In this document: in pieces, positions 5,205 through 58,743 of the stretch | How the letters are laid out: every line of letters starts with the position of its first letter | How positions within the stretch are numbered: the first letter of the stretch is position 1 | From: Pyrinomonadaceae bacterium | Lineage (GTDB): Bacteria; Acidobacteriota; Blastocatellia; Pyrinomonadales; Pyrinomonadaceae | DNA length: 64,000 nucleotides | Direction: 5' to 3' | Assembly (NCBI GenBank): GCA_963817025.1 | Contig: CAWFML010000001.1 | Coordinates: 285,332 to 349,331 of the forward strand | Notes under the pieces: generated by a model | Told to the model about the DNA's origin: nothing | The model's input: the letters and a program-made list of their open reading frames with translations, nothing else | The model's database searches: none | Made by a program: the position numbers and the translations under genes

Positions 5205-5339
5205 GTCAGAACCGCGAGCGAGAGCAAGGATGAAGGATGAAGGCGGAAGGATGAAAGGCAGGCCGTTCAAACATGAACCACTCAACTTTAAATAGCATGC
5301 TCTTCATCCTTCATCCTTGCTCTCGCTCGCGGTTCTGAC
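5205..5339. repeat. palindromic intergenic repeat, GGATGAAGG family (copy 1)
   Basis: Inverted arms gtcagaaccgcgagcgagagcaaggatgaaggatgaagg and ccttcatccttcatccttgctctcgctcgcggttctgac. A second copy lies at 58629-58743. Confidence 0.8.
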
Positions 5340-6667
5340 TTAGTGATAAGCGGGCGTGCCTTCAAAGACGGTCATGATCTCCTTAATCATCCGGTCATAG
5401 TCGCCGTCATAACGCGACAGCTCGTAACAGCCGAGCGGGTCAGAAATCGCGTGTACCAGACACTTGTTGCAATAGGTGCAGGGTTTATCAGGCAAGTCTT
5501 TGCCGGAAGCGTAGATGTGTGCCAGGTCGTTATTCGCCACCAGCGGGCGCGCGATGGCGACGCCGTCACAGTAGCCCTCTTTAATCACCTTGCGTATATA
5601 CGAGGCCGTCTGAAAACCGCCTGTGCAAAGCACAGGGACTTTGACGTGCTTCTTGATCTCGCGCGCATCGCCGACGCTGATGCCTTCGATGATGTCCGGC
5701 TTGGTGCGGTTCCAGAGGAAATTAAAGAAGGGACGGAGCAGCCTGTAGCGAAACAACAGGAAATTGCGAAAGCCGTACACGCCGCTCGGAATCATGCCGC
5801 CGTAGGTGCGCGCGGCGTGCTCAAGCGGAAACGGGCCGGGCGGGTTCAAGGGATGCGGAAAAGTGCTGCCGCTCGAAACATGTATGGCATCGGCTCCGGC
5901 CTCTTCGACCATTTTGGCAATCGGAATCGTGTCGTCCAGCGTGTTGCCCTTCTTCTCCCAGAAGGCGAGCGCGTTGTTGTGATCCACTGCGCTGAGCTTG
6001 ACCTGAAAGTGGAAATCATCGCCGACCGCGCTTCTGACCGCGCGCATGATTTCGAGCAGGAAGCGCGCACGATTTTCCAGCGAGCCGCCGTATTCGTCTT
6101 TGCGGTTGTTGATGCCCGAGCTTAAGAATTGATTTATCAGATAGCCGTTGCAGGCGTGTAGTTCTACGCCATCCAATCCGGCAGCTTGTGCGCGGCGCGC
6201 GGCGTCGCCAAACTGCCCGACGACCATCTTGATTTCATCGCGCGTCATCGCCTGACACAAGAGGCCGTGAAAAGAGTCTGTCGTGTCGGTCGAGCTTAAG
6301 GCTCTGTTGAAAGAGTTCTCGACGCCGCCGACATCTCGCTGGCGGCCTCCGTGGCTGAGTTGCATGATGTACTTGCAACCGTACTCATGCACCTTCTCTC
6401 CAACCCTGCGCCAGAAAGGAATCTTGTCGTCGTGGTCTATGAAGGCGTAGTTCGGCAGGATACGCCCGCGCGCACTGATGGGCACATGCGAAGAGATAAT
6501 CGCGCCGACGCCGCCGCGCGCAAATTTCTCTTCCCAGTTGATGCGCGCCTGCGTGCCGATGCCGTTGTAGTAATCGAACCTGCCGGAGATATTCGAGCGG
6601 AAGATACGATTTTTCACCGTGAGGTTGCGAAACTGTAAAGGCTCGAAAATGACATCCTGCTCTGCCA
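5340..6667 (-). CDS. Old Yellow Enzyme family NAD(P)H:flavin oxidoreductase (2,4-dienoyl-CoA reductase-like FMN domain)
   Basis: TIM-barrel OYE hallmarks (e.g. HACNGYLINQFLSSGINNRKDEYGGSLENRARFLLEIMRAVRSAVGDDF). The likely true start is MAEQDV at 6667, preceded by a GGAGGA ribosome-binding site; the longer ORF-track start at 6824 runs into a repeat element. Confidence 0.8.
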
Positions 6668-6727
6668 TGACTCCGTTCCTCCTACTCGTCTGAAAATTTC
6701 CGCCTGCGGGCCAAACAAGAGCGTTGA

Positions 6728-6832
6728 ACCAGATGTTCTTTGCGGCGCTTTGCGTCTGTTCTTCTTTGCGGTTAAGAGTTTTTTTTAACGCAAAGGGCGC
6801 GAAGTATTTTCGCAAAGAGCGCAAAGATTATT
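6728..6832. repeat. palindromic repeat, GCGCAAAG family (degenerate copy)
   Basis: ctttgcggcgctttgcgtctg...cgcaaagggcgcgaag...cgcaaagagcgcaaag, imperfect inverted CTTTGCG/CGCAAAG units. Confidence 0.6.
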
Positions 6833-19482: not shown

Positions 19483-21253
<1,771 letters not shown>

Positions 21254-21350
21254 AAGGCAAAAGTAAAAAGGTAAAGGGCAAAAGTGAAGATATAAGGACT
21301 TATCAAGGCTGTTCTTCACTTTTGCCTTTTACCTTTTGCCTTCTTACTTA
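21254..21350. repeat. palindromic repeat, GGCAAAAG/GTAAAAG family (copy a), abutting the groEL stop
   Basis: ggcaaaagtaaaaaggtaaagggcaaaagtgaaga ...loop... tcttcacttttgccttttaccttttgcc. Confidence 0.85.
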
Positions 21351-23905: not shown

Positions 23906-23950
23906 AAAAGGGTTTCAGTGAGACTTTCATTGAAGCCCTTTTCCTTTTCC
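23906..23950 (+). terminator. putative rho-independent terminator after the clpA-like gene
   Basis: Stem aaaagggtttca / tgaagccctttt (11 of 12 bp) followed by ccttttcc. Confidence 0.5.
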
Positions 23951-23984
23951 GGTAAGCTTTGAATTTGAAAGAGAACGTCTCATG

Positions 23985-24086
23985 CAAAGGCGCAAAAGGA
24001 AGGTAAAAGTGAAGAGTGATTGAATGCTTTCCTGCCTTTTACCTTTTACCTTTTTACTTTTACCTTCCTTTTGCGCCTTTGCGAGA
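23985..24086. repeat. palindromic repeat, GTAAAAG family (copy b) with GCGCAAAG-type outer arms
   Basis: caaaggcgcaaaaggaaggtaaaagtgaagag ... cctgccttttaccttttacctttttacttttaccttccttttgcgcctttgcg. Confidence 0.8.
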
Positions 24087-24120: not shown

Positions 24121-24963
24121 ATGAACTACAAAATCATTTTTCACACGAAATGGCCGCTCGCCATGCTTTCCCTGCTGCTTCTTCTCTGCCTGACGACTTT
24201 GAACATTCAGGCGCAGAGCGAAAAGGCCGCGCCTGCCGCGAAGCCCGCGCCCGCCGGCGAAGAGAAGGCCGAGCAGATTTTGCAGCAAGCCGCAGCCGCG
24301 CTTGGCGGCAACAGCTATCTGAGTGTCAGCACCGTCGTCGGGCGCGGCATGTACACGCTTTACAAGGAAGGCCAGCCGGAATTGCCTCTCACCTTTACAG
24401 ACCACCTCGTCTACCCGGACAAAGAGCGGACGGAGTTTCGCAGCGAGGGAATTAAAACCATTCAGGTCAACACGGGCGACACGGGCTGGATTTTTGACGG
24501 CGGGGCCAGAAGCTTGAAAGACCTGAAGCCCGATCAGATCAACAACTTCAAACTGGCAATGCGTATCAATATAGATAACCTGCTGCGCGGCGCGTGGCGC
24601 AAAGAGGGCGCGAAGATCAGCTATGCCGGAAGGCGCGAGGCGGGCCTTGCCAAACGCAATGAGACTGTACGCGTCTCCTATCCTGACGGCTTCACAGTCG
24701 AGTTCGAGTTTGGCGCGCAGGATCATCTCCCGGCCAAAATCATCTATCTCAAAAAGCATCCTGAGAACGATGACGAGTTTATCAAGGAAGAAGACCGCAT
24801 GGCGCAGTATCTCAACCTCAACGGCATCCTTGCTCCCTTCGTCATAGACCACTACAGCGCGGGAGTGCAGACCAGCCGCACCAACTATCAATCCATAGAG
24901 TTCAACGCGCCCGTCCCCGACAGCCTCTTTACGCGTCCGGCGAATGCGAAGGCCGTCAAGTAA
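24121..24963 (+). CDS. secreted hypothetical protein (signal peptide)
   Basis: MNYKIIFHTKWPLAMLSLLLLLCLTTLNIQAQS signal peptide. The ORF-track start at 24016 lies inside the repeat element and is rejected. Confidence 0.6.
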   Translation: MNYKIIFHTKWPLAMLSLLLLLCLTTLNIQAQSEKAAPAAKPAPAGEEKAEQILQQAAAALGGNSYLSVSTVVGRGMYTLYKEGQPELPLTFTDHLVYPDKERTEFRSEGIKTIQVNTGDTGWIFDGGARSLKDLKPDQINNFKLAMRINIDNLLRGAWRKEGAKISYAGRREAGLAKRNETVRVSYPDGFTVEFEFGAQDHLPAKIIYLKKHPENDDEFIKEEDRMAQYLNLNGILAPFVIDHYSAGVQTSRTNYQSIEFNAPVPDSLFTRPANAKAVK

Positions 24964-25053
24964 AAAAAGGAAAAAGGTAAAAGGTAAAAGGTAAAAGTGA
25001 AGATGAAAGCAATGCCGTTCTGACTTTTACCTTTTACCTTTTTCCTTTTTCCT
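24964..25053. repeat. palindromic repeat, GTAAAAG family (copy c)
   Basis: aaaaaaggaaaaaggtaaaaggtaaaaggtaaaagtgaagatgaaagcaatgccgttctgacttttaccttttacctttttcctttttcc. It abuts the stop of the 24121-24963 gene and is followed by a half-site of the GCCACAGAGGAC family. Confidence 0.8.
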
Positions 25054-25073
25054 TTCTCTTGTGTCCTCTGTGG

Positions 25074-25622
25074 CTAACTCCCACGCTTTGCTGCGCGCAC
25101 AAGCTTTGTGAACGCCTGCATCTCTGCTTCCGGAAATTCACGCCGCCAGTTTTTATCGAACTCGTCAACTTCTATGTCGCGGTGCAATTCGCGCAGAGCT
25201 GTCCAGAATGGGAGGCAGAGGTCGAGCGGGGTCGCCGTGTGTGAAAAGACAACCTCGCGTTTGCTCTTGAGCCTGCGGTGATCCGGGAAACGCACGACCG
25301 TGAGTTCCGCCCCCGCCTGATTTTGCAGCCACTCGAAATCATATTCTTCAGGCTCTCTGTTCCATTTGACGGTCAAGTTTTTTTCGCCGCCGAGAAGCGC
25401 GGAGAGAGCCTGGATTAAATCGCGCAGCGAATCATAGGGCGCGTGTGAGACGGCTGTCACAAAGCTTTCCTGACCGGCCTTGAGACCGATGGACATCCAG
25501 CCGCTCTGCGGGCTGTTAAAGCTGACTTTTAGTTTCTGGTTCATGTAATAATGTTGAGACAAAACTTGACAAGGCTGTTCAATCTTAGTTATCTGGACTT
25601 GCTCTTCGGTTTTAGAATACAA
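25074..25622 (-). CDS. hypothetical protein, divergent from thyA
   Basis: 182-aa ORF with no recognisable motif. The true start may be the internal MNQKLKV. Confidence 0.45.
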
Positions 25623-30162: not shown

Positions 30163-30490
30163 CTGCCTCCGTGCGGGTTATCCGAAGAGACTTTCAAAAT
30201 ATAACTGCTGCAAAGTTCGTCCCAGAGATAAAATAGGAAGAATCCGTTTCATCAATAAATAACACTCAAGTCGCACAGATTTCAAACTCAGAGTGAGTTT
30301 TGTTGTTTTTATAGCCATTAGCGATTGGATATAGCCGCTTGAGCAGGGCATCTTGTCAGAACCGCCTGCGGCAAGCGTGCGGGTTCTTAGCATTGAAGAC
30401 CCGCACGCTTGCCGCAGGCGGTTCTGACCTGTGTCTACACTCAATCGCAAATTGCTATAGTAGTTGCCCGCAGGAATTTGGTTAGATTAA

Positions 30491-30745
30491 CGTGAGTTCG
30501 ACGGAAGAACGGTGCGGTGTTAGTTAGCCCCGGAGGGGCGGCATATATTAGCCCACGGCTTCAGCCGTGGGGACAGCACCCACATCAATGGTCTAAGCCC
30601 CGGAGGGGCGGCATAATCTATACCGCCCCTCCGGGGCTTAGACCTTGTAGGGCGTCTTGTCCCAGCACTGACGTGCTGGGCTAATATATGTCGCCCCTCC
30701 GGGGCTGTCATGGAGCAATCCTCTTCCGCTTATATCGAACTCACG
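30491..30745. mobile_element. MITE-like non-autonomous element, copy A (255 bp, 11-bp terminal inverted repeats, 9-bp target-site duplication TTAGATTAA)
   Basis: Ends are cgtgagttcga...tcgaactcacg. It is flanked on both sides by ttagattaa. The interior carries four copies of the palindromic 14-mer GCCCCGGAGGGGCG and its reverse complement. Copy B at 51512-51789 is the reverse complement. Confidence 0.8.
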
Positions 30746-36742: not shown

Positions 36743-39337
36743 ATGTCAACCGAGACCGTTGATACTGTCAAGCCGGATGTCGCCAAGACTAACGAGTTCC
36801 CGGATATTGTCGGGGCCAAGCCGGAGAATCCGCTAGCCGCTGCGTTTAGTCCGTATATTCCAGCCGGAACGAACATGCGCGAGTTGACGCCGCGCGCCGT
36901 CATCGTCGGCACCTTGCTCGGCATGATTTTCGGCGCGTCATCGCTCTATCTGGTGCTGAAGGTGGGACTCACCGTCAGCGCTTCGATTCCGGTGGCCGTC
37001 ATCTCGATCACGCTCTTTCGTCTCTTCTCGACCTTCGGCGCGAAGAACGCGACCATCCTTGAGAACAACATCGTTCAGACGGCAGGCTCTGCGGGCGAAT
37101 CAATCGCGTTCGGCGTCGGCGTGACGATGCCCGCGATTATGATCTTAGGCTTTGACCTAGACCTCTCGCGCGCCCTGCTCGTCTCAATCCTCGGCGGGCT
37201 GCTCGGCATTCTGATGATGATTCCGCTCAGGCGCGCTCTGATCGTGCAGCAGCACGGGATTTTGAAATATCCGGAAGGGACTGCGTGCGCCGAAGTGCTC
37301 AAGGCCGGAGCATCAGAGGAATCCAAAGCAGCGGCTTCATCGCAAGCTAAAGCGGAGATGGCCGCTGCGGGTGAGAACAACATCGGCGCGAAGACCATTT
37401 TCACGGGCTTCGGCGTAGGCTTTCTTTACTACGTCATCAACAAGGCTCTCTACGGCTGGAAGGAAGTGCCGGAGAAAGTTTTCGGCTCGCCGCTCAAAGC
37501 AGGCTCTGTCGGCATGGAGATCAACCCTGCGCTCCTGGGCGTCGGCTACATCATCGGCCCGCGCATCGCTTCCATCATGGCGGCGGGCGGCGTGCTCGCC
37601 TATCTCGTTTTGATTCCGGCAATCAAGTTTTTCGGCGAAGGGATGACGACTGTCCTGCCGCCGGGAGACAAGCTGATTTCCGACATGGGGCCAAACGATA
37701 TACGCGGCGCATACGTGCTCTACATAGGCGCGGGCGCGGTGGCGGCGGGCGGCATCATCAGCCTCTTCCGCAGCTTGCCGACCATCTGGCACGGCCTCAA
37801 AGGCGGCATTGCGGATTTGCGCGGCGGACAAGCGCAGGCGGCCTCTGCCCCGCGCACGGATCAAGACCTTTCGATGAAGTTCGTGCTGGGCGGCATCATC
37901 GTGATGATTGCGGCCATCATGCTCTTCAAGGATTTGGGCCTCTATCTTCTAACGAGTCCGATTGTCGCCATCCTCGGCTCTTTGATGATTATCGCTTTCG
38001 GCTTTCTCTTCGTCACAGTCTCTTCGCGCCTGACGGGTGAGATTGGTTCGTCATCGAATCCGATTTCCGGCATGACGGTCGCCACGCTGCTGTTGACCTG
38101 TTTGATTTTTCTGGTCGTCGGCTGGACAGGCCCGAACTATTTCGTGACGGCCCTCTCTATCGGAGCTATCGTTTGCATCGCTGCCTCGAACGGCGGCACG
38201 ACTTCGCAGGACTTGAAGACCGGATTCCTGGTCGGCGGCACGCCGAAGTACCAGCAGATTGCGATTCTCTTCGGCGCGGGCGCGTCGGCCCTGATTCTTG
38301 GGCCAATCCTGATTAGCCTCAATAACGCCTCGACGGTTTATGTGCCGCGCGTGACATTTGAGCCGGTCAAGGAAGTTTCGCAGCCGCTGGATGCGGGTAC
38401 TGCGAGCGCGCTTCCGGCTTACACGGAAGAAGCAAAGCCTGCGGGCGCAACCGGCAGTTTCCGCACTTTGACCGTCGCCGCCGATGCGCCGCCGCCTGTC
38501 GCAGGACTCAAGACTGGCGAGTATCTGGTAGACGGTTCCGGCAAAGTCACACATAAAGTTTCGCGCAACTTCCCGCCTGACCTGCGCGCTCCCGTCGGGC
38601 AGTTGACAGAGCGGCACGGGCTGCAAGGCCCGCAGGCCGGAGCGGATAGCAAGCAATATCTTATCTGGCACAAAACGGATACGGCCAACGGCCCTCCCGG
38701 ACAATATCTGGTTGACGATACGGGCGCGCCGGTGTGGCTGGTTGACCCCGGCATCAACGGCACGCACAAGGTGCGGCCGGATGGCACGGAGGTCACGAAG
38801 TTTGACGCGCCGAAGGCGACGCTCATGTCCTATATCATCAAGGGCGTGCTCGATAGAAAGCTGCCGTGGGGACTCGTGCTCTTAGGCGTGATGATTGCCA
38901 TCGTGCTTGAGATGTCTGGGATTCCTTCGCTGGCTTTCGCGGTCGGCGTCTATCTGCCGCTCTCTTCTTCCAGCCCGATCTTTATCGGCGGTTGCGTGCG
39001 CTGGCTGGTGGACAAGCACTTGCGCAAGAAGCTGGCCCACAGAAATATGACGGAAGAAGAACTGGTCGCAGAAGGCGATAAGAGTCCGGGCGTGTTGATG
39101 GCTTCGGGTTACATCGCCGGGGGCGCGATTGCCGGAATCGTCATCGCCTTTATGGCAGGCGTTTTGACGGACACGACCAAAGGCATAGAGGAATGGTCCA
39201 AACACTCGAACCCGATGTTCGAGGGGCCGTGGGCAGATGTGCTGTCGCTGATTCCTTTTATCCTGCTGACCGCCCTGCTCTATCTGGTCGGGCGCGGGAT
39301 AGTGCTCGCAGATAAAACGCGCAGAGTCGAAAGATAA
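36743..39337 (+). CDS. OPT-family oligopeptide transporter with a large soluble insertion
   Basis: Many TM segments in the N-terminal 480 aa and C-terminal 150 aa match the OPT pattern (e.g. [42 protein letters not shown]). A ~250-aa hydrophilic insert (residues ~540-790) separates them. Confidence 0.75.
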
Positions 39338-39682: not shown

Positions 39683-40483
39683 TTGATGTCTCAGCATGAA
39701 AGATTTGGCGGCGCACGTATCGCTGCTCTTTTTATTTCCGCCCTCCTGCTCGTGACGCTCTCGACTGTGGGCGTGCTCGCGCAAACGGCTTCAACGCCCG
39801 CGCGCACTCCCGGCGAAACCGTCCGCGAATTCTACAAGGCTTTACACGAAAAGAGATTCCGCGACGCTCTCAGCATCAGCATCTACAAGTCTGCCATAGA
39901 GGGCATGAGCCAGAAGGAGTTTGACGAGTTGCGCCCGGACTTCGAGGCCATGTCTCTCGGAGCCAATAAGCTTGAGGTGGCCGGAGAACAGATCAGCGGC
40001 GAGACCGCAACCGTGTTCGTCAAAGTGCCGGATGATAACGGAGAGGTGCAGACCTCAAAGGTCGAGCTGATTCGCTCAGGCGGCATCTGGATCGTCGGCA
40101 ACGGTGATGACGAGAAAGCTATCAAACAGGCCGGTAAAGACTATTTTCTGAGAATCCGCATCCAAACGCATGAAGAAGAAGTCAAAGTGATGATGGAGCG
40201 CATCATCAAAGCGCAGCTTGTCTACAGTTCGCAGAACAACGGGCTGTACGCGGAGATTCCGGTGCTCGTCAAAGCCGGACTGCTGCCGCCGGACATCGAG
40301 AGCACGGCCTCGACCGGCTATCGTTACCGCCTGACGCTTGCGAGCGACAAGAAAACTTATTTTGCACAGGCAGAGCCGGCACAGTACGGGCGCACGGGTC
40401 GCCTCTCTTTTCATCTGGATTCGACCGGAGTGTTTCAGAAAAAGGATGCCGGCGGCAAGCCGCTTACACCAGATAAGAAATAA
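39683..40483 (+). CDS. secreted hypothetical protein
   Basis: Signal peptide (ARIAALFISALLLVTLSTVGVLAQTAS). No motif recognised. Confidence 0.5.
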   Translation: MMSQHERFGGARIAALFISALLLVTLSTVGVLAQTASTPARTPGETVREFYKALHEKRFRDALSISIYKSAIEGMSQKEFDELRPDFEAMSLGANKLEVAGEQISGETATVFVKVPDDNGEVQTSKVELIRSGGIWIVGNGDDEKAIKQAGKDYFLRIRIQTHEEEVKVMMERIIKAQLVYSSQNNGLYAEIPVLVKAGLLPPDIESTASTGYRYRLTLASDKKTYFAQAEPAQYGRTGRLSFHLDSTGVFQKKDAGGKPLTPDKK

Positions 40484-40554
40484 GCGGAAGCAAGTTTTTT
40501 CAATAGCGGGTCAGTTTGAAATTCCGGTGAATATTCATCAGGACGAAAGAGATT

Positions 40555-40680
40555 CGCGCAAAGGCGCAAAAGCAAGGCAAAAGTAAAAAGGTAAAAGGCA
40601 AAAGTGAAGACGAGTTGACTGCCTTTCTTACTTTTACCTTTTACCTTTTGCCTTTTTACTTCTGTCGCGCCTTTGCGCGA
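40555..40680. repeat. composite palindromic repeat: GCGCAAAG outer arms enclosing a GGCAAAAG/GTAAAAG core
   Basis: gcgcaaaggcgcaaaagcaaggcaaaagtaaaaaggtaaaaggcaaaagtgaagacgagttgactgcctttcttacttttaccttttaccttttgcctttttacttctgtcgcgcctttgcgcg. Confidence 0.85.
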
Positions 40681-40761
40681 ACATGTTTTTTCTTCGCTGC
40701 TATTGAAACTGAAGAGCTACCGTTTTTTTAGGTTACGTTCTCATTTCGGAAAGATTCTCCC

Positions 40762-42657
40762 ATGAAAAACTCAAACAGCCTTGCGTCTCCCTCTCAGGCA
40801 AACATCTTTTCGCGCATGGCGTTGCTCCTGAGCCTGCCGCTCATGCTCCTGCTTATCACGCACGCGCATGTCAACGCGCAGACGCAAACGCCCGTCGTCG
40901 TGCAGGAAGAGGCGACCACCACGACGAATGCCGTCGAGCGTGCGACAAAGGAAGCAGTCAAGGCCAAGTCCGTTGTCCGTGGCCGCGCCGTCTATGATGA
41001 TACGGATCGGCCCGTGCGCCGCGCTCGCGTCATGCTGCTGGATATGAACCAGCGCGGGCCGGAGCGCACGGGGATGACCAACGGCTCCGGCGAGTTTCAA
41101 ATCAAGGAAGTTCCGGCAGGCAACTACTTTGTGATGGTGGATATGACGGGAGTGATTACGCCTATCAGCTTCGTTGATTTTGAGGATGCCAGCGGCGAGA
41201 AATTCAATCTTGAAGAGGTGAAAAAGCATTTCACGGAAATCGCCGTGGACGGCACGAATGACCAGACCATCAAGGTGCGTGCGCGAAAGGGCGGAGCCAT
41301 CAGCGGCAAAGTGACATACGCGGATGGAGATGCGGCCATCAACGTGCGTGTCAACATCATGCGCAAGAAAGACGGAAAGCTGGCGCGCTTTATCACCAAT
41401 CTTAACCCGTCTGCGTTATTCGGGATTCAAACGGACGACCGTGGGATGTATCGCATCGCAGGGCTGCCGCCCGGCGAATACAACATCAGCGTAGCAGAGA
41501 CTGTGGATCACTCGGAGGGGCGCAGCGGTCGTGAAGAATACTATATGGGGATGAACATGTTCGGCGGCAACTCTCTGCTGGTCACATATTATCAGGGCGC
41601 GACCGATGAGAAAGAGGCGACTTCCCTACAGGTTGACGCCGGACAGGAATATAACGAGATCAACATCTCGCTGGTCGAGCGCGTGCTGCATAAACTCTCG
41701 GGAACAGTCGTCGCGCGGCGTGACAACAAGCCTCTTCCCAATACTCGCATCAGCATCAAAAGCAAAACCGACACCCTTCCAGACTTTGGTTTTATGTCTG
41801 TCGGGCCGGGCGCATCCACAGACGAGCAGGGCCGTTTCACGCTCAACGAGATACCCGACGGCGTTTACACCCTGACGGTCGAATCAACTTATTCAGGCCC
41901 GGAGGTAAGAACTGAAGTGGATGAAGAAGGGTCGCCGTCAACGGCACCCAACGAGTCGAGGCGCAAGCTGATACGCAAGCAGCAGGACGTAACCGTCAAC
42001 GGCAACGATGTGGCGGATTTGACGATCACTCTCATAGAGGGCGCAATCCTCAACGGCACTGTGATGGTTGACGGGGGCAAACCGCTCCCGCCGCTGACTT
42101 ATGTGACGATGGCGGATGCGAGCGGCGCGGTGGTCAGCGATGTCCCGGTGGAGGTGCAGCAAGACGGCAGTTTCACGATAGACGGTTTGCCTGCGGGAGC
42201 CGTTTACCCGAACGTCTCTGTCAGAGCCACGAGTGAAAACTATTACGTGAAATCAATGACGGCAGGCGGCGCGGACTTGATGCGTGACGCGCTCGCCGTC
42301 GGCGAGGGCGCGAACATCAATGGCGTGAAGATTGTCATCTCGCCTGATGCGGCGACGCTCACGGGCCGCGTGCTCGCACCGGACGCTACGCCTGTCAGCG
42401 GCGCGCGCTTTGTGCTTATCCCGGCAGACCTAACTCGTTGGCGCGCACGCATCTCTTATCTCTTCGGAGATTCTGCGGGCAACGGCAGCTACACCGTCAG
42501 CGGCGCGCCCGGAGAGTATCTCATCGTCTTCATGCGACCGGCAGACCAGCCGAACGCCATCAACGAGGCGTGGATTAGAGAACGCGCCGTAAACGCACAG
42601 CGCGTGACGCTGCTGCCGAAACAGAGCAAGAGCATGAACCTGACCATGCCTCAATAG
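40762..42657 (+). CDS. secreted protein with multiple carboxypeptidase-regulatory-like (CarboxypepD_reg / transthyretin-like) beta-sandwich domains
   Basis: Signal peptide. Repeated modules of the type VRGRAVYDDTDRPVRRARVMLLD...GEFQIKEVPAGNYFV, LSGTVVARRDNKPLPNTRISI...GRFTLNEIPDGVYTL and LTGRVLAPDATPVSGARFVLIP...GSYTVSGAPGEYLI. Confidence 0.6.
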   Translation: MKNSNSLASPSQANIFSRMALLLSLPLMLLLITHAHVNAQTQTPVVVQEEATTTTNAVERATKEAVKAKSVVRGRAVYDDTDRPVRRARVMLLDMNQRGPERTGMTNGSGEFQIKEVPAGNYFVMVDMTGVITPISFVDFEDASGEKFNLEEVKKHFTEIAVDGTNDQTIKVRARKGGAISGKVTYADGDAAINVRVNIMRKKDGKLARFITNLNPSALFGIQTDDRGMYRIAGLPPGEYNISVAETVDHSEGRSGREEYYMGMNMFGGNSLLVTYYQGATDEKEATSLQVDAGQEYNEINISLVERVLHKLSGTVVARRDNKPLPNTRISIKSKTDTLPDFGFMSVGPGASTDEQGRFTLNEIPDGVYTLTVESTYSGPEVRTEVDEEGSPSTAPNESRRKLIRKQQDVTVNGNDVADLTITLIEGAILNGTVMVDGGKPLPPLTYVTMADASGAVVSDVPVEVQQDGSFTIDGLPAGAVYPNVSVRATSENYYVKSMTAGGADLMRDALAVGEGANINGVKIVISPDAATLTGRVLAPDATPVSGARFVLIPADLTRWRARISYLFGDSAGNGSYTVSGAPGEYLIVFMRPADQPNAINEAWIRERAVNAQRVTLLPKQSKSMNLTMPQ

Positions 42658-42750
42658 AAGGCAAAAGTAAAAAGGTAAAAGGCAAAAGTCAGAGAAGCAT
42701 TCAACTGCTCTTCACTTTTGCCTTTTACCTTTTTACTTTTGCCTTCTTCC
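42658..42750. repeat. palindromic repeat, GGCAAAAG/GTAAAAG family (copy e), abutting a stop codon
   Basis: aggcaaaagtaaaaaggtaaaaggcaaaagtcagagaagcattcaactgctcttcacttttgccttttacctttttacttttgcc. Nearly identical to the copy at 57412-57505. Confidence 0.85.
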
Positions 42751-43327: not shown

Positions 43328-43342
43328 TCTTGAAGAACGACT

Positions 43343-43411
43343 CACGCTGGTGGCGCAAAGGCGCAAAGAAGGACTTAATCGTTTTCTTTGCGCCTTTGCG
43401 CCACCAGCGTG
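43343..43411. repeat. perfect 69-bp palindrome, GCGCAAAG family (copy c)
   Basis: cacgctggtggcgcaaaggcgcaaagaaggacttaatcgttttctttgcgcctttgcgccaccagcgtg. Confidence 0.9.
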
Positions 43412-43431
43412 CGCCGCTTGCGCGTGCCAGC

Positions 43432-45619: not shown

Positions 45620-45751
45620 CGCTCCGAATATCGAACCTTTCCTTTGTTTGCCACTCCTCTGATGCTCTACGCGCTTTCAATTTTTAGGAGTGGGTCAAGG
45701 TGAAGTTGATGAGTCGTTAATCATGAACTGAGTGCGGAAGAAAGCAAGATT

Positions 45752-45850
45752 CTCCCGCAAAGACGCAAAGGCGCAGAGGAAGACCGCAAAGGTGTTGAGT
45801 GCCACTCGCTCTTGGCGTGCTTTTCTTTAAGCCTTTGCGCCTTTGCGGGA
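45752..45850. repeat. palindromic repeat, GCGCAAAG family (copy d)
   Basis: cgcaaagacgcaaaggcgcagaggaagaccgcaaaggtgttgagtgccactcgctcttggcgtgcttttctttaagcctttgcgcctttgcg. Confidence 0.85.
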
Positions 45851-45893
45851 AACTGTCTTTTGGTCTCCGCGCTTGTCATCTGAAACTGACTCA

Positions 45894-50094: not shown

Positions 50095-50107
50095 CCACGT
50101 ATAATTT

Positions 50108-50213
50108 CCCGCAAAGGCGCAAAGGCGCAAAGCAAGACGCGAAGAAAGCGTTCAAGATAAATAGAGCTTCAACACCTTTGCGTGCTTTTCTTTGCGCCTT
50201 TGCGCCTTTGCGC
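50108..50213. repeat. palindromic repeat, GCGCAAAG family (copy e)
   Basis: cccgcaaaggcgcaaaggcgcaaagcaagacgcgaagaaagcg...cacctttgcgtgcttttctttgcgcctttgcgcctttgcg. Confidence 0.85.
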
Positions 50214-50234
50214 GAGTCGTTCTTTATGAGCTTG

Positions 50235-51484: not shown

Positions 51485-51511
51485 CCACAAAGGCACAAAG
51501 GCACTAAGAAA

Positions 51512-51789
51512 CGTGAGTTCGATATAAGCAGAAGAGGATGCTGCATGACAGCCCCGGAGGGGCGACATAGCTTAGCCCGGCACGTCAGTGCCGGGACAAG
51601 ACGCCCTACAAGGACGAAGCCCCGGAGGGGCAACATATTATGCCGCCCCTCCGGGGCTTCGACTTTTGATGTGGCTGCTGTGTCCACGGCTGAAGCCGTG
51701 GGCTAATCTATGTCGCCCCTCCGGGGCTATCTAACATCTCGCCCCTCCGGGGCTAACTGACACCTCACCGTTCTTACGTCGTACTCACG
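51512..51789. mobile_element. MITE-like element, copy B (278 bp, inverted relative to copy A), nested inside a GCACAAAG-family palindrome
   Basis: Terminal inverted repeats cgtgagttcga...tcgtactcacg. Flanking duplication ctaagaaa / ttaagaaa. The interior has GCCCCGGAGGGGCG units. The host palindrome arms ttaaccacaaaggcacaaaggcactaagaaa (51481-51511) and ttcttagtgtctttgtgcctttgtggttaa (51809-51838) are split by the insertion. Confidence 0.8.
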
Positions 51790-51898
51790 TTAAGAAAATG
51801 ATTCCTCTTTCTTAGTGTCTTTGTGCCTTTGTGGTTAATCTGTCTTTATTCTTATCCGCGCCTATCCGCGTTCATCCGTGGCTGATTCGTCTCTTTTC

Positions 51899-54763: not shown

Positions 54764-55106
54764 AATTCTATTTTCCTATATTGGCGGCGAGGTTTTATCT
54801 CTTTCACATTTTCCGAAATTGAATTCATAAATACCCGTTAATGATTACAAAGACCGTATTATATTAGGAATATTTCAAGCTGATGCAGCATTCCGGGCAT
54901 TGACGAGATTGGTTCTAACAGTTGGGGCGACTCTGGAAATCAGTTCCGGCTGGCATCATTTGGCGAGAAGCGCGGATTTGTAATCTTCAAGAAGCTTTCT
55001 TAGGCCAGAAACATAGCCACCTTACACGTGATTGCGGTAAATCTTTCAATCTGAGGGAAATTCAGGTAGTGGGTCAGTTTCAGATGACAAGCCCGGAAAC
55101 CAAAAG

Positions 55107-55209
55107 CATGTTCGCGCAAGGGCGCTGGTGGCGCAAAGAAAGCACGCCAAGAGCGAGTGTCATTCAACACCTTTGCGGTCTTTCTTTGCGCCACCAGCGC
55201 CTTTGCGCG
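55107..55209. repeat. palindromic repeat, GCGCAAAG family (copy f, inverted relative to copy d)
   Basis: gcgctggtggcgcaaagaaagcacgccaagagcgagtgtcattcaacacctttgcggtctttctttgcgccaccagcgcctttgcg. Confidence 0.85.
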
Positions 55210-55379
55210 AATATGCTTTTCTTCGCTATTTGTGAAGCAGACTCACTACTCCCTGAAAAAGGGACTAGCCGGGATGAAGCGCTTCGTTATATAATGCTTT
55301 TGCCTGCGAGATTTTCTCTCTCGCTTAGCAATTGCCCATCTAAATATTTTTCCTCCTCAAGCTTGCAATCTCGAACATC

Positions 55380-57410
55380 TTGAAATATTCAACGACATCA
55401 TTCAAAACATTTGTGTTCTCGTTCCTGCTCTCGGTCTTGGCCGCGCTCTCGATTTGTGCGCTGTGGGAGGCGGGGCTGCTGGCTTCTATGCAGAAAGCCT
55501 TTCTGCTCAGGCATCCGGAGATCACGGCTGAAATAGTTGCGCCGCAGCTATGGATTGCGCTGCTGCTGATTTTTACGGCGGGCATCTTCGCGGGCCTCGC
55601 GGTGGAGCGCATGGGCGCAAGGCGCGCGTTGCCCTTTATCTCAGGCGCGCTGATAGCCGGTTGCGCGGCGAGCTTTCTCAGCTCCTACTTTTTGCAGGTA
55701 GATGTGGTCTTTGCGCCCGCCGCGCTCTCCACGCTGGCCGCTGCCGCTCTGGTGCAGACAGCGCGCCTCTGGCACGTTGATGTGATGCTGACGCGCAACA
55801 TGCGACAGGTGGCCGCGCAGACTCACGCGCTCGAAGGCGGAGCAGCCCACGCGCGGCTGATGAGCGGCCTACGGCTGCTGGACACAGTCCTCCCTCTGGA
55901 CGAGGCCGTGATTTTTCATCCGGACGAGAATAACCATCTCGCCCCGGCTGCTCGCTTGCGCGCCACTGCCGGAGAGAAGCCGGAAAGCAATCCGAACTCT
56001 GCATGGCGCGAGGGCGTGGAATTGTGCGAGCGCGCGGTCAAGACCGGCAAGATGATGATGATGATGGCCGAGACAGGAGACGGCCCTGCGAGCATCGCTC
56101 TGCCTTTGAGGCATGAAGGTCGTGCTGTCGGAGCTTTGCTGGTACGTCTCTATGAGGGATTTGACGAGAGCGACCGTCCGCTGCTGGCTGCGGTCAGCGC
56201 GCAGATGGCCCGGAATTTTCAGCGCGACGAAGCGCGCAATCAGATTCTCAAAAAAGATTTGTGGGACTACGTCTCCGTCCACGCGGCAGAGCGGCGGCTG
56301 GCCTCTTTCGGCGTCGTCAGCGGTTTGATGACGGAGCAGAGATTCGGCGCGCAGGCTCTGGCCGAAACCTCTGACGGCCATGCGGTCGCATATCTTGACG
56401 GCACGCTGGCGCACATCAACCCGGAGATGCTCAAGGCCGCGCGGCTGACGGAAGATTTGGCGCGCAAGCTGGACATCTTCGGCCTCTTAGACCTTTTTCG
56501 CACGGGCGTCTTTGACGAGCCTTCCATAGCCGTCCGGCGCGTCCTGCAAACAGGCGACCCCTACGAGCGCGAGCTGCATTACGTCGAGCGCAATCAGACG
56601 CTTGAGCTGCGGATAGCCCTCATCACAGAGGGCACGCGCGCCGCCGGAGAGAATGAAGAAAGCGCGGCGCAACCGCTCTGCCTGTCCGTCACCGTGCGCG
56701 ATGTGACGCGCATGAAGGAGTATGAAAAATTGAAGAGCGACATGATCTCGCTGATGTCGCACGAACTCAGAACTCCGATTACGAGCATCAACGGCTTTGC
56801 GGAATTGCTGGCGATGGACGAAAGCATTCCCGAAGAATCGCGCGAGTTTCTGACCATCATCTCCAATGAATCGCAACGCCTCTCGCGGATGATTAATACC
56901 TTCCTCGCCGTCACGCAGCTCGAAGCCGCAGACAAACAGGAGGTCTTGAAAATCCCGCTCAAGATGGACGATGTGGTGCGCGAAACTCTCGCCAGCCTGC
57001 TGCCCGTCGCCAAGAAAAAACGCATCCGTCTGATAGAACAACCGGCCTCGCGCATGCCGCCTGTGGCCGCAGACAAGAGCCTCATCACACAGGTCGTCGC
57101 CAATCTCGTCGGCAACGCCATCAAGTACAGCCCTGAGCGCACGACCGTCACGGTCTCGACAGTGCTCGAAGCAGATGCCGTGCGCGTGCAGGTGGAAGAC
57201 AAGGGTTACGGCATCCCGCCCGAATCAATTGATAAAGTATGGGAGAAATTTTATCGCGTGGCGCGCGACGGGCAGGAGAAGGATGAAGAGTCAACCGGAC
57301 TCGGACTCGCCTTCGTGCGCGAAGTCGTAGAGCAGCACGGCGGCGAGGTCGAAGTTGAATCCGAAGTCGGGCGCGGCTCGACCTTCAGCTTCACGCTGCC
57401 CAGACTCTAA
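55380..57410 (+). CDS. sensor histidine kinase (polytopic N-terminal domain, central GAF-like region, HisKA, HATPase_c), orphan
   Basis: H-box SHELRTPITS, N-box VVANLVGNAIKYS, G-boxes DKGYGI and GLGLAFV. The start codon is uncertain. Confidence 0.85.
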   Translation: MKYSTTSFKTFVFSFLLSVLAALSICALWEAGLLASMQKAFLLRHPEITAEIVAPQLWIALLLIFTAGIFAGLAVERMGARRALPFISGALIAGCAASFLSSYFLQVDVVFAPAALSTLAAAALVQTARLWHVDVMLTRNMRQVAAQTHALEGGAAHARLMSGLRLLDTVLPLDEAVIFHPDENNHLAPAARLRATAGEKPESNPNSAWREGVELCERAVKTGKMMMMMAETGDGPASIALPLRHEGRAVGALLVRLYEGFDESDRPLLAAVSAQMARNFQRDEARNQILKKDLWDYVSVHAAERRLASFGVVSGLMTEQRFGAQALAETSDGHAVAYLDGTLAHINPEMLKAARLTEDLARKLDIFGLLDLFRTGVFDEPSIAVRRVLQTGDPYERELHYVERNQTLELRIALITEGTRAAGENEESAAQPLCLSVTVRDVTRMKEYEKLKSDMISLMSHELRTPITSINGFAELLAMDESIPEESREFLTIISNESQRLSRMINTFLAVTQLEAADKQEVLKIPLKMDDVVRETLASLLPVAKKKRIRLIEQPASRMPPVAADKSLITQVVANLVGNAIKYSPERTTVTVSTVLEADAVRVQVEDKGYGIPPESIDKVWEKFYRVARDGQEKDEESTGLGLAFVREVVEQHGGEVEVESEVGRGSTFSFTLPRL

Positions 57411-57411
57411 A

Positions 57412-57505
57412 GAAGGCAAAAGTAAAAAGGTAAAAGGCAAAAGTCAGAAAGGCATTCAAGCCCTCTTCACTTTTGCCTTTTACCTTTTTACTTTTGCCTT
57501 TTATT
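57412..57505. repeat. palindromic repeat, GGCAAAAG/GTAAAAG family (copy f); overlaps the 3' end of the SET-domain gene
   Basis: aaggcaaaagtaaaaaggtaaaaggcaaaagtcagaaaggcattcaagccctcttcacttttgccttttacctttttacttttgcc. The right arm encodes the last four codons and the stop (K-R-Q-K-TAA) of the minus-strand SET-domain gene. Confidence 0.85.
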
Positions 57506-58628: not shown

Positions 58629-58743
58629 CAGGAGCAAGGATGAAGGATGAAGGATGAAGGATGAAAAGCATGCTATTCAACCTTGAGTTGCTCATCTTCA
58701 ATAGCGCTCTGTTCATCCTTCCGCCTTCATCCTTGCTTTTCCA
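58629..58743. repeat. palindromic repeat, GGATGAAGG family (copy 2); overlaps the rph stop codon
   Basis: ggagcaaggatgaaggatgaaggatgaaggatgaaaagcatgc ... ctgttcatccttccgccttcatccttgcttttcc. On the minus strand its right arm reads ...GAA AAG CAA GGA TGA, giving the rph C-terminus E-K-Q-G-stop. Confidence 0.8.

What the first reader, a model, noticed from the sequence alone, without database searches (positions are those of the whole stretch)
21254..21350. GGCAAAAG/GTAAAAG palindromic repeat family: six copies, each starting at or overlapping a stop codon
Copies are at 21254-21350, 23985-24086, 24964-25053, 40555-40680, 42658-42750 and 57412-57505. Each is a ~90-100-bp hairpin whose arms are tandem 7-8-nt units (GGCAAAAG-TAAAAAG-GTAAAAG-GCAAAAG). 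Each begins within 0-3 nt of a stop (groEL TAA; clpA-like; the 24121-24963 gene; the 39683-40483 gene; the 40762-42657 gene; the HK at 55380-57410). Copy f also supplies the last four codons and the TAA of the convergent SET-domain gene. This precise placement at stop codons suggests either insertion targeting of stop-codon contexts (TAA-rich A-tracts) or selection for a role as terminators or mRNA 3'-stabilising hairpins.
Basis: seen in the sequence. Interest (0 to 1): 0.6.

Follow-up and report, generated by a model that had tools for sequence, protein, structure and literature searches.

The report
Heptamer-armed hairpin repeats at stop codons
Six copies of a ~90-base hairpin built from 7-base repeats sit at gene ends in this soil acidobacterium, and they appear to be gene-less miniatures of a small cassette that elsewhere carries the 'four-helix-bundle' protein gene known from ribosomal-RNA intervening sequences, which links the old puzzle of bacterial heptamer repeats to a candidate selfish element.

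Summary
The six hairpins are real. The motif hits 39 times against 0.9 expected, and RNA folds are -43 to -62 kcal/mol. Four copies (a, c, e, f) start at or inside a stop codon. Copies b and d do not: they lie 101 and 69 nt downstream and are nested inside arms of another repeat family.

The window comes from a Pyrinomonadaceae-type acidobacterium. In relatives the same hairpin again abuts stop codons (median about 2 nt). It is one "flavour" of a lineage-wide class: about 3.6 long palindromes per 10 kb, arms of tandem 7-mers, the purine-rich arm almost always 5'. At orthologous gene ends the flavour differs between genomes while the flanking promoter blocks stay conserved. Copies b and d are absent in relatives.

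[quoted passage not shown] A second S23p subfamily carries GGGATGA/GGATGAA arms, also present as hairpins in the window.

Best reading: these are ORF-less derivatives of an IVS-like selfish cassette. They tolerate or target stop-codon junctions and probably give RNase III-cleavable, terminator-like RNA stems. Mobility and RNA function are inferred, not shown.

The parts
21254..21349 (.). Copy a. GGYAAAAG-armed hairpin directly after the groEL TAA (21251-21253). Arm/loop junction is AAAAGTGAAGA.
   Evidence: -42.9 kcal/mol, z -6.8. A hairpin of the same family sits at the orthologous groEL 3' end in L070 and L121. L117 has a CGTAAAT flavour there instead.
23984..24082 (.). Copy b. Composite: outer arms GCAAAGGCGCAAAAGG (GCGCAAAG family) enclosing GGTAAAA-type arms. 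It lies 101 nt after the Clp stop and about 40 nt before the next gene's ATG (24121).
   Evidence: -58.9 kcal/mol. Absent at the orthologous spacer in L070, L119 and L121. Other palindromes occupy that spacer in L117 and L122.
23908..23948 (+). Canonical short intrinsic terminator of the Clp ATPase gene (GAAAAGGGTTTCA..TGAAGCCCTTTTC, then CTTTTCC). Not part of the family; serves as a contrast.
   Evidence: Conserved with compensatory changes in more than 10 orthologous loci.
24964..25057 (.). Copy c. Hairpin (GGAAAAA/GGTAAAA units) directly after TAA 24961-24963, and 16 nt from the stop of the convergent gene 25074-25622. The loop begins GTGAAGATGAAAGCAATGCC.
   Evidence: -47.3 kcal/mol. At the orthologous stop in 20 metagenome loci and L070, most carry a hairpin of a different flavour. 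The loop start resembles the S23p ORF start of L041.
40553..40682 (.). Copy d. Composite: outer arms TTCGCGCAAAGGCGC / GCGCCTTTGCGCGAA enclosing the GGYAAAAG hairpin (40574-40661). It lies 69 nt after the stop at 40481-40483.
   Evidence: -62.4 kcal/mol. No hairpin at the orthologous spacer in L137 and L145.
42656..42747 (.). Copy e. 34-bp perfect arms AGAAGGCAAAAGTAAAAAGGTAAAAGGCAAAAGT. The foot overlaps the TAG (42655-42657) of the CarboxypepD_reg gene.
   Evidence: -58.5 kcal/mol, z -13. L137 has a GTAAATA/GTGAATA-flavour hairpin at the same stop, with the downstream block GCTATAATCAA conserved.
57411..57502 (.). Copy f. It fills the whole spacer between the convergent HK (TAA 57408-57410) and SET genes. 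The SET gene's last four codons and its TAA (57488-57502, minus strand) lie in the 3' arm.
   Evidence: At the orthologous site L137 has a GTGATAA/GTGATGA hairpin, L141 and L142 a canonical terminator, and L138, L140 and L143 no hairpin.
5205..5339 (.). Sister flavour: GGATGAA-armed hairpin (inner arms 5226-5255 and 5302-5318) inside outer arms GTCAGAACCGC. It abuts the stop of gene 5340-6824 (minus strand).
   Evidence: The unit order AAGGATGAAGGATGAAGGCGGAAGGATGAA equals the 5' arm of the S23p cassettes in L165-L167.
58633..58737 (.). Sister flavour: (GGATGAA)x4-armed hairpin overlapping the stop of the RNase PH gene (58727-59461, minus strand).

Best explanation
The six elements are ORF-less members of a class of heptamer-armed palindromic cassettes. 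The full-length form of the cassette carries a small PF05635 gene between the same inverted arms. PF05635 is the four-helix-bundle protein, also called S23p or 23S rRNA intervening-sequence protein, and it resembles Avd, the accessory protein of diversity-generating retroelements (DGRs). In other words, these are IVS-like selfish elements living at mRNA gene ends rather than in rRNA, much as MITEs relate to insertion sequences.

Shown here:
- The arms are tandem 7-mers (GGCAAAA, GGTAAAA, GTAAAAA, GGAAAAA) and form 25-45-bp stems.
- The purine-rich arm is 5' on either strand.
- The family is dispersed in many Pyrinomonadaceae genomes and abuts stop codons.
- Copies are gained, or replaced by other flavours, at orthologous sites.
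- The same arms, with the same AAAA|GTGAAGA junction, bracket S23p ORFs in Acidobacteria and cyanobacteria. A second S23p subfamily carries GGGATGA/GGATGAA arms.

Inferred:
- The hairpins arose from, or are propagated with, such cassettes by copy-and-paste.
- They persist at stop codons because three heptamers place TAA in all three frames on both strands, and because in full cassettes the arm also supplies a Shine-Dalgarno-like AAGG and the start codon. That would give translational coupling to the upstream gene.
- Once transcribed, the 30-45-bp perfect stem is an RNase III substrate, as shown experimentally for rRNA IVS stems. With its U-rich 3' arm it would also act as a bidirectional terminator-like 3'-end former.
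For: Family and significance.

Distribution:
- The exact 30-mer GGCAAAAGTAAAAAGGTAAAAGGCAAAAGT occurs in 22 sources.

Stop adjacency:
- Median about 2 nt, TAA 61% against 40% background, ORFs ending inside arrays.
- 31 of 36 nearer the stop than the start.

Class-wide features:
- 257 palindromes in 713 kb.
- In the set not chosen by motif, purine-first 58 against pyrimidine-first 6 (p = 9e-12).
- Convergent spacers 62% occupied.

Turnover and gain:
- b and d are absent in relatives.
- Flavours differ at the groEL, OPT (oligopeptide transporter gene 36743-39337), CarboxypepD_reg, HK and 24121-24963 gene ends, while neighbouring promoter blocks stay conserved.
- The family is 6 per 64 kb here against 1 per 307 kb in unbiased relatives.

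Link to the S23p cassette:
- In L041 the arms enclose a PF05635 ORF (E = 6e-22).
- Homologues picked by protein similarity alone are all bracketed by A-rich heptamer inverted arms. The arm starts at the upstream stop codon. This includes Nostoc copies at 73-77% amino-acid identity.
- Subfamily B carries GGGATGA/GGATGAA arms in Pyrinomonadaceae and Anaerolineae.
- All six window copies share the AAAA|GTGAAGA junction. The loop of copy c matches the first 13 nt of the L041 ORF.

Literature:
- The Coxiella 23S IVS has tandem heptamers upstream of its S23p ORF, with copy number varying between strains. RNase III cuts at the first repeat, and the IVS is regarded as selfish or possibly mobile (PMC4990558).
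- PF05635 resembles Avd (PMC10053308).
Against: - No transposase, target-site duplication or excision footprint was found. S23p has no known catalytic activity, so the mobility mechanism is unknown.
- The window holds no S23p ORF or remnant. The source genome could not be examined as a whole.
- Shared sequence beyond the arms is short (7-13 nt), so the direction of derivation (ORF loss or ORF capture in a hairpin loop) is not settled.
- Unit order often differs between the two arms and between loci. This points to slippage or in-situ evolution as well as copying.
- There is no RNA-level signature: sense G.U 73 against A.C 75. The simple terminator scan does not flag the hairpins.
- Family loci were ascertained with the motif itself. 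Gene calls are my own codon-model calls with uncertain starts.
Confidence: 0.55

Rival explanations
1. The hairpins are ordinary bidirectional intrinsic terminators or mRNA 3'-protecting hairpins. They evolved in place under selection, with A-tract and U-tract arms lengthened by slippage. Their similarity between loci would be convergence, and they would not be mobile.
For: - 3'-end bias and high occupancy of convergent spacers.
- Purine/A-rich arm first and U-rich arm last on both strands.
- A hairpin is present at the same gene end across genomes despite sequence turnover.
- A canonical terminator occupies the orthologous HK 3' end in L141 and L142.
- The tail of the conserved Clp terminator (CCCTTTTCCTTTTCC) looks like a seed for the units.
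Against: - Identical 30-nt arms with the same order of variant units occur in 22 sources.
- b and d sit downstream of, or away from, the real gene ends and are absent in relatives.
- Stems of 30-45 bp are far longer than termination needs.
- Conventional terminators in the same genomes are short and stable over long evolutionary distances.
- There is no excess of G.U over A.C mismatches.
- The same arms bracket a gene inside operons such as nuoA-nuoB, where a terminator would be harmful.
- Many sister flavours lack any U-tract.
Confidence: 0.12
2. The hairpins are a mutational by-product: polymerase slippage favours 7-nt units and palindromes are symmetrised by hairpin-templated repair. S23p genes would be unrelated small ORFs that tend to land in, or be retained inside, such hairpin loops.
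For: - Unit number and order vary, and often differ between the two arms of one hairpin.
- Dozens of flavours share one architecture.
- Over-representation of heptameric simple sequence repeats (SSRs) and a slippage hypothesis are in the literature (PMC4692102).
- Nested insertions in loops are common: Acido-Lenti-1 elements sit inside the 51486-51833 hairpin, and b and d are nested.
Against: - Arm flavour co-varies with S23p subfamily across phyla. GGYAAAA goes with subfamily A in Acidobacteria and cyanobacteria. GGRATGA goes with subfamily B in Pyrinomonadaceae and Anaerolineae.
- The ORF's start codon and its Shine-Dalgarno-like sequence lie in the last units of the arm.
- Family abundance is genome-specific.
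Confidence: 0.15
3. The hairpins are classical non-autonomous transposable elements (MITE or REPIN type). A transposase encoded elsewhere in the genome (for example a RAYT or IS200/IS605-type Y1 enzyme, or IS630) would mobilise them, with a target preference for TAA/A-rich stop contexts.
For: - Dispersed, near-identical copies; gain and loss at orthologous sites; nested copies; genome-specific abundance.
- REPINs are likewise hairpin doublets in extragenic space, tied to a flanking single-copy gene (PMC3116915).
Against: - No target-site duplication or terminal motif beyond the arrays was seen.
- No transposase was found among the 30 of the 48 called window genes that were scanned against Pfam.
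- The only gene found between such arms, in 10 of 10 independent loci, is PF05635.
Confidence: 0.08
4. The palindromes act at the DNA level, for example as cruciform or protein-binding sites, replication or segregation signals, or uptake sequences, rather than as RNA.
For: - Mismatch spectrum is symmetric between strands.
- ORF-less copies show no orientation bias (11 co-oriented, 9 anti).
Against: - No periodic genome-scale placement could be tested.
- The strong tie to stop codons and to transcription-unit ends is hard to explain at the DNA level.
- The rRNA IVS precedent is RNA processing.
Confidence: 0.05

Closest known systems
23S rRNA intervening sequences (IVS) carrying an S23p / PF05635 ORF (Coxiella, Leptospira, Salmonella-type IVS)
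   Same: - Inverted repeats form a long stem around an optional small four-helix-bundle ORF.
- Tandem heptamers lie directly upstream of the ORF start, and their copy number varies between strains.
- ORF-less versions exist.
- They are regarded as selfish and possibly mobile, and RNase III cleaves the stem (PMC4990558; bioRxiv 10.1101/2024.02.27.582315).
- Here the same protein family sits between the same arms as the window's hairpins.
   Different: - The window copies flank protein-coding genes at stop codons, not rRNA helices 25/45.
- They are ORF-less.
- Both arms consist entirely of heptamer arrays.
- They occur as an abundant dispersed family.
- RNase III cleavage has not been tested.
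Cyanobacterial STRR (short tandemly repeated repetitive) heptamer sequences and STRR hairpins
   Same: - 7-bp tandem units in intergenic DNA that can pair into hairpins, for example between hupS and hupL. Their function is unknown; stability, translational coupling or termination have been proposed (PMC2670836).
- The very same GGYAAAA hairpin, right after stop codons, occurs in Nostoc loci L034 and L035.
- Nostoc S23p genes carry these arms (L152 and L153).
   Different: - This lineage is Acidobacteria (Pyrinomonadaceae), not heterocystous cyanobacteria.
- The units differ from STRR1-3.
- No paper found in the searched library links STRRs to PF05635.
G-rich heptamer repeats GGGAATC (Xanthomonas) and GGGGA(C/T)T (Nostoc)
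   Same: - Heptamer arrays are often paired in convergent orientation (70-75 pairs per genome).
- They are rare between divergent genes.
- The purine-rich strand lies within 0-50 bp of, or overlaps, the stop codon.
- They vary between close species (PMC4692102).
- Xanthomonas also encodes a PF05635 protein (2GSC).
   Different: - Those repeats are interpreted as G-quadruplex formers.
- The present units have no G-tracts and cannot form G4.
- No link to an ORF-bearing cassette was drawn there.
REP / REPIN elements with their RAYT transposase
   Same: - Abundant extragenic palindromic doublets form hairpins, mostly at 3' ends.
- Several flavours occur per genome, each tied to a cognate protein gene flanked by that flavour.
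- Nested clusters occur (PMC3116915).
   Different: - The associated gene is a four-helix-bundle protein, not a Y1 transposase.
- The arms are tandem heptamers, not a conserved 20-40-nt REP with a GTAG head.
- No RAYT was seen.
Bidirectional intrinsic terminators
   Same: - A-rich arm, stem and U-rich arm on both strands.
- Enriched between convergent genes.
- A canonical terminator replaces the hairpin at one orthologous site.
   Different: - The stem is 3-4 times longer than a terminator stem.
- There is no discrete U-tract after the full stem.
- The simple scan does not call them.
- Copies are repeated and exchangeable.
- Related cassettes sit inside operons.

Membership tests
IVS-like S23p (PF05635) cassette | Long stem formed by inverted repeats at the element ends | tested here: met
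   Stems of 25-45 bp, -43 to -62 kcal/mol.
IVS-like S23p (PF05635) cassette | Tandem heptamer repeats adjoining the 5' side of the ORF or loop | tested here: met
   TRF finds period 7 in every copy. The same feature is described for the Coxiella IVS and seen in all S23p loci examined.
IVS-like S23p (PF05635) cassette | A PF05635 ORF between the arms | tested here: not met
   No ORF or remnant in the window, so the six copies are ORF-less. The feature is met in L041, L099, L147-L155 (same arms) and in L120, L161-L167 (GGGATGA arms). ORF-less IVSs are also known in rRNA.
IVS-like S23p (PF05635) cassette | Located in 23S rRNA helix 25 or 45 | tested here: not met
   Rfam finds no rRNA in the window. 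All copies flank protein-coding genes.
IVS-like S23p (PF05635) cassette | Excision or cleavage of the stem by RNase III | not testable with these tools
   Only inferred, from stem length and perfection and from the rRNA precedent.
Cyanobacterial STRR | Tandem heptanucleotide units, dispersed in intergenic DNA | tested here: met
Cyanobacterial STRR | Occurrence in (heterocystous) cyanobacteria with units STRR1-3 | tested here: not met
   The lineage is Pyrinomonadaceae-like and the unit is GGYAAAA. The same unit does occur as hairpins in Nostoc. The sequences of STRR1-3 come from my own knowledge, not from a tool result.
G4-forming heptamer repeats (Xanthomonas/Nostoc) | At least four G-tracts of at least 3 G able to fold a quadruplex | tested here: not met
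   Units carry at most GG.
G4-forming heptamer repeats (Xanthomonas/Nostoc) | Purine-rich array on the coding strand within 50 bp of, or overlapping, the stop codon; frequent inverted pairs | tested here: met
.
REPIN/RAYT | Inverted REP doublet forming a hairpin in extragenic space | tested here: met
   Architecture only.
REPIN/RAYT | A cognate RAYT (Y1 transposase) gene flanked by the same repeat | tested here: inconclusive
   None among the 30 of the 48 called window genes that were scanned against Pfam. The rest of the genome is unavailable. The gene found between the arms elsewhere is PF05635.
MITE | Terminal inverted repeats plus a target-site duplication; related autonomous IS with a transposase | tested here: not met
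   No duplication at the borders of a, c, e or f, or in the listing of 67 junctions. No transposase partner was found.
Intrinsic (Rho-independent) terminator | G+C-rich short stem-loop immediately followed by a U-tract | tested here: inconclusive
   Not called by the consensus scan. The 3' arm itself is a series of U4-5 tracts that follow a growing stem. Termination was not measurable here.

The most novel reading that the evidence does not exclude
Heptamer-armed hairpins in general would be the non-autonomous progeny of S23p / Avd-like four-helix-bundle cassettes. This would include these Pyrinomonadaceae families, cyanobacterial STRRs, and perhaps the Xanthomonas GGGAATC pairs and rRNA IVSs. 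The cassettes would form a previously unrecognised class of mobile element that inserts at stop codons and intercistronic junctions, and even splits genes and operons such as nuoA/nuoB. The heptamer array would provide stop, Shine-Dalgarno sequence and start. Each S23p lineage would recognise its own arm flavour, possibly working with a reverse transcriptase as Avd does in DGRs.
Probability: 0.22. Interest if true: 0.85.

Novelty: new variant of a known kind. Interest (0 to 1): 0.66.

Why it matters
Tandem heptamer repeats (STRRs) have been known in bacteria for decades (my own knowledge), and rRNA intervening sequences for more than 25 years (PMC4990558). Neither has an agreed origin or function.

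This work gives three new handles:
- In Pyrinomonadaceae and cyanobacteria the same heptamer arms occur both as abundant ORF-less hairpins at stop codons and as brackets of an S23p/Avd-like gene.
- Arm flavour tracks the protein subfamily across phyla.
- The cassettes sit precisely at stop/start junctions, including inside the nuo operon.

This turns a descriptive oddity into a testable hypothesis: a selfish cassette with a non-transposase partner protein.

There are also practical consequences.
- Genome annotation: C-terminal codons and stop codons can be donated by the repeat, and genes can be split.
- Assembly of soil MAGs: about one long palindrome per 3 kb.
- Reading 3'-UTR structure and operon processing in a major soil phylum.

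Tried and rejected
- **Rfam, gathering thresholds.** No family covers the hairpins. Only tmRNA and four Acido-Lenti-1 copies were found.
- **Consensus terminator scan.** It does not call the hairpins. Its limits on loop and stem make this uninformative.
- **Target-site duplications and terminal motifs.** Sought at the borders of a, c, e, f and in 67 stop-proximal junctions. None found.
- **Loop motif GCATTCAA/TTCAA.** It seemed shared between families. It is in only 28 of 168 loops and is not among the top enriched k-mers, so it was dropped as a general signal.
- **RNA-level selection test, sense G.U against A.C mismatches.** 73 against 75, no signal.
- **Orientation of ORF-less copies relative to flanking genes.** 11 against 9, no bias.
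- **Exact-protein look-up of the SET protein to find the source genome.** Not on record. The source genome was also absent from the 116 motif loci, so no genome-wide count for this organism was possible.
- **Viral contigs.** Five motif hits, one real hairpin, no S23p. There is no evidence for a phage vector.
- **Profile search of PDB.** It reaches 2RLD and, weakly, 2GSC, but not bAvd (the Bordetella-phage Avd). The Avd relationship therefore rests on the literature.
- **Alignment of the b and d spacers with relatives to define insertion junctions.** This failed because those spacers are too diverged.
Full report
**1. The observation**

All six elements are present at the stated places. Each is a near-perfect palindrome with arms made of 7-nt units: GGCAAAA, GGTAAAA, GTAAAAA, GGAAAAA (TRF period 7). 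The core motif occurs 39 times in the window against 0.9 expected. As RNA the elements fold at -43 to -62 kcal/mol, z -6.8 to -13, on either strand.

Pfam confirms the neighbouring genes: Cpn60, Clp ATPase, DUF4878, CarboxypepD_reg, PilZ, histidine kinase (HK) and SET. The ORF upstream of groEL is GrpE.

Copies a, c, e and f begin 0 to -2 nt from a stop codon. The last four codons and the TAA of the SET gene lie in the 3' arm of f.

Copies b and d do not abut stops. They start 101 and 69 nt downstream and are composites: a GGYAAAAG hairpin nested inside outer arms of a GCGCAAAG family. Between the Clp stop and b lies a short canonical terminator.

**2. Where the window comes from, and how general the family is**

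Rfam finds tmRNA and four Acido-Lenti-1 elements. Most are from Pyrinomonadaceae / Acidobacteria subdivision 4 (gp4) MAGs, with a few from Nostoc and others. The source genome itself is not among them.

I called genes with a codon-usage model trained on the window. About 60 family hairpins from about 45 other genomes then showed:
- 20 convergent, 31 tandem and 4 divergent contexts.
- Distance from hairpin foot to nearest stop has a median of about 2 nt, with 60 of 75 between -24 and +20.
- TAA is 61% of adjacent stops against 40% background.
- About a dozen ORFs end on a TAA inside the array.
- In tandem contexts 31 of 36 lie closer to the stop than to the next start (p = 1e-5). This holds even though my start calls bias against it.

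Three GGTAAAA units give TAA in all three frames, on both strands.

**3. One flavour of a large class**

The window contains 26 long palindromes, and almost every 3' intergenic spacer has one. Other unit types are GGATGAA, GCGCAAAG, CACAAAG and GTGACGA.

In 713 kb of Pyrinomonadaceae-type DNA there are 257 palindromes with stems of 16 bp or more, or 3.6 per 10 kb. About 100 have 7-periodic arms, in dozens of flavours including GTGATGA, GTGACGA, GGTGAAT/CGTAAAT, GGTTCAA and CAGTTTT.

In the 371 kb not selected by the motif:
- The 5' arm is purine-rich in 58 and pyrimidine-rich in 6 (p = 9e-12).
- 62% of convergent spacers are occupied, against 24-36% of the others.
- The GGYAAAAG family is 6 in this window against 1 in 307 kb of relatives.

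**4. Orthologous comparisons**

L070 (groEL and Clp 90% amino-acid identity) has the same family after groEL. It lacks b, and it has a GCAGAAT-type hairpin where the window has c.

Twenty metagenome loci encode the orthologue of gene 24121-24963. Most carry a long hairpin right after that stop, each with a different unit: GGTGATG, GGGCAGT, GGCAAAGA, ACGCAGA, CACAGAG and others.

The closest relative available is L137 (OY969475.1), with oligopeptide transporter (OPT) 90%, HK 82% and RNase PH 88% amino-acid identity.
- It has hairpins of other flavours at the OPT, CarboxypepD_reg and HK 3' ends.
- The promoter-like blocks just downstream are conserved (TTCACTTGACCGGCAACGATTTTCGTT; GCTATAATCAA).
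- It has no hairpin at the position of d.

At the HK/SET junction other genomes have a canonical terminator (L141, L142), another palindrome cluster (L146) or nothing.

After groEL, three of four genomes keep the GGYAAAAG flavour and one has CGTAAAT. The short Clp terminator is conserved, with compensatory changes, over much larger distances.

The SET protein is conserved up to ...CRGTINK. The residues after that, and the stop, come from the hairpin arm both here and in L137.

Overall, hairpin sequence turns over much faster than neighbouring non-coding DNA. Copies are gained. Each element reaches exactly as far as coding constraint allows.

**5. The link to a gene**

[quoted passage not shown] It matches the solved four-helix-bundle protein 2RLD (E = 4e-34 with a profile) and weakly matches Xanthomonas 2GSC.

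Among the motif-fetched loci, Leptolyngbya (L099, 70% identity), Stenomitos (L071) and a Pirellulaceae contig (L024) carry homologues next to the same arms.

I then chose homologues by protein similarity alone. The top hits are from Pyrinomonadaceae, other Acidobacteriota and Nostoc at 70-87% identity. I fetched their contigs. In every locus the ORF is bracketed by inverted A-rich heptamer arms, and the 5' arm starts at the stop codon of the upstream gene. For example:
- L147: TAA|GGCAAAAGTAAAAAGGTAAAAGGTAAAA|GTG...TAA...TTACTTTTACCTTTTACCTTTTTACTTTTGCCTT.
- L152 and L153 are the equivalent in Nostoc.

A divergent homologue (L120) has (GGGATGA)x4 arms. Its relatives sit between nuoA and nuoB in four Pyrinomonadaceae contigs, and between DAHP synthase and prephenate dehydrogenase in Anaerolineae. 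All have GGGATGA/GGATGAA arms, with the ATG inside the last unit. The Anaerolineae arm AGGATGAAGGATGAAGGCGGAAGGATGAAG has the same unit order as the window hairpin at 5226-5255.

Arm flavour therefore co-varies with protein subfamily across phyla.

All six window copies share the arm/loop junction AAAA|GTGAAGA, which in L041 and L147 is the start of the ORF. The loop of copy c (GTGAAGATGAAAGCAATGCC) matches the first 13 nt of the L041 ORF. The window itself has no such ORF or remnant.

**6. What is known**

- The Coxiella 23S rRNA IVS contains an S23p ORF preceded by tandem heptamers (GACAGAT). Their number varies between strains. RNase III cuts at the first repeat. The IVS is called selfish, and a mobility role for the ORF has been proposed (PMC4990558).
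- PF05635 resembles the DGR accessory protein Avd (PMC10053308). It is described as functionally uncharacterised.
- Cyanobacterial STRR heptamers can form hairpins of unknown function (PMC2670836).
- G-rich heptamers in Xanthomonas and Nostoc occur as inverted pairs and lie at or over stop codons (PMC4692102).
- REPINs pair with a flanking RAYT gene (PMC3116915).
- I found no paper in the searched library on such repeats in Acidobacteria, or on a link between heptamer hairpin repeats at gene ends and PF05635.

**7. Mechanism**

Shown: anatomy, distribution, stop adjacency, turnover and gain, shared arms with S23p cassettes, and flavour-subfamily pairing.

Inferred:
- The hairpins are ORF-less derivatives or trans-dependents of these cassettes.
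- The purine-first arm supplies stops in all frames. In full cassettes it also supplies a Shine-Dalgarno-like AAGG 6-8 nt before the start, so a ribosome terminating at the foot of the stem would open it (translational coupling).
- The 30-45-bp RNA stems are RNase III substrates. With the U-rich arm, they also form terminator-like 3' ends.

Against an RNA-selected structure: sense-strand G.U and A.C mismatches are equal (73 against 75), and ORF-less copies have no orientation bias.

Against simple copying alone: unit order often differs between the two arms. Slippage therefore also shapes them.

**8. Limits**

- Family loci were ascertained with the motif, and the scan was truncated.
- Gene calls are my own.
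- The source genome is unavailable.
- No mobility enzyme, footprint or transcript data exist.

**9. Verdict**

The finding is real and the positional claim is largely right (4 of 6 here, and strong elsewhere). The element is a new variant of known kinds, namely STRR-like heptamer hairpins and IVS-like S23p cassettes. The evidence connects those two kinds.

Noticed in passing
window 43338-43416, 45751-45852, 50107-50215, 55102-55220, 63030-63158 (and the outer arms of b and d): A second palindromic family has ends TTCNCGCAAAGGCGC...GCGCCTTTGCGNGAA and often an inner GCTGGTGGCGCAAAG. Two copies (55102, 63030) lie in apparently divergent or 5' regions, unlike the other families. The same unit occurs with the pyrimidine arm first in other genomes.
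   Followed up: partly
window 30526-30706 and 51547-51754: Four Rfam Acido-Lenti-1 (RF01687) hits occur as inverted pairs with extra AGCCCCGGAGGGGC palindromes. The second cluster is nested inside the loop of a CACAAAGG-armed hairpin (arms about 51486-51508 and 51811-51833). Hairpin loops therefore act as landing sites for other repeats.
   Followed up: partly
window 19483-19610: A rare pyrimidine-first palindrome (CTTTGTG / CACAAAG units, 62-nt loop) fills the spacer between grpE and groEL and ends 18-29 nt before the groEL GTG. It sits in a heat-shock cluster (Hsp20, ClpB, Hsp20, GrpE, GroEL, Clp). No CIRCE element was seen. It could be a 5'-UTR regulatory structure.
   Followed up: no
L148, L149, L154, L155 (about 970-1430 in the loci): The S23p cassette lies between a 305-aa DEAD/ResIII ORF and a 621-aa DSHCT ORF. 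This looks like a Ski2-like helicase split in two by the cassette. In L154 the upstream ORF reads through the A-rich arm and its stop overlaps the S23p start (TAATG).
   Followed up: partly
L161-L164 (570-1042) and L165-L167: S23p cassettes with GGGATGA arms are inserted between nuoA and nuoB, co-oriented with the operon, in four Pyrinomonadaceae contigs. In Anaerolineae they sit between DAHP synthase and prephenate dehydrogenase. All cassettes fetched by protein were co-oriented with both neighbours.
   Followed up: partly
P0049, P0084 (Nostoc) against L041 (Pyrinomonadaceae); L099, L071 (Leptolyngbya, Stenomitos): S23p proteins are 70-77% identical between Acidobacteria and cyanobacteria and carry the same flanking arms. 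This suggests horizontal transfer of the whole cassette between soil or biocrust phyla.
   Followed up: partly
window 5205-5242 / 5302-5339 and 30355-30428; L004 5035-5114, L122 2366-2435: Another conserved palindrome family starts GTCAGAACCGCCTGCGG... In the window it occurs once alone and once as the outer arms around a GGATGAA hairpin.
   Followed up: no
window 57906-57967: A 9-nt tandem repeat (GGAGAGTTT x3.9) forms part of a small hairpin between the SET gene and the next gene.
   Followed up: no
window 53209-53498: A 132-nt tandem repeat (2.2 copies, 73% match) lies inside the PD40/FG-GAP beta-propeller gene 51899-54763. It is presumably a coding domain repeat.
   Followed up: no
loops of family members in other genomes (e.g. 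L044 189-285, L060 2222-2329, L092 2384-2477): Many GGYAAAAG hairpins elsewhere carry a different conserved inner module: GGCGGAAACCAC-TTTTAATTAAAA-GTGGTTTCCGCC. This is itself a hairpin with an AT-rich loop. Its meaning is unknown.
   Followed up: no
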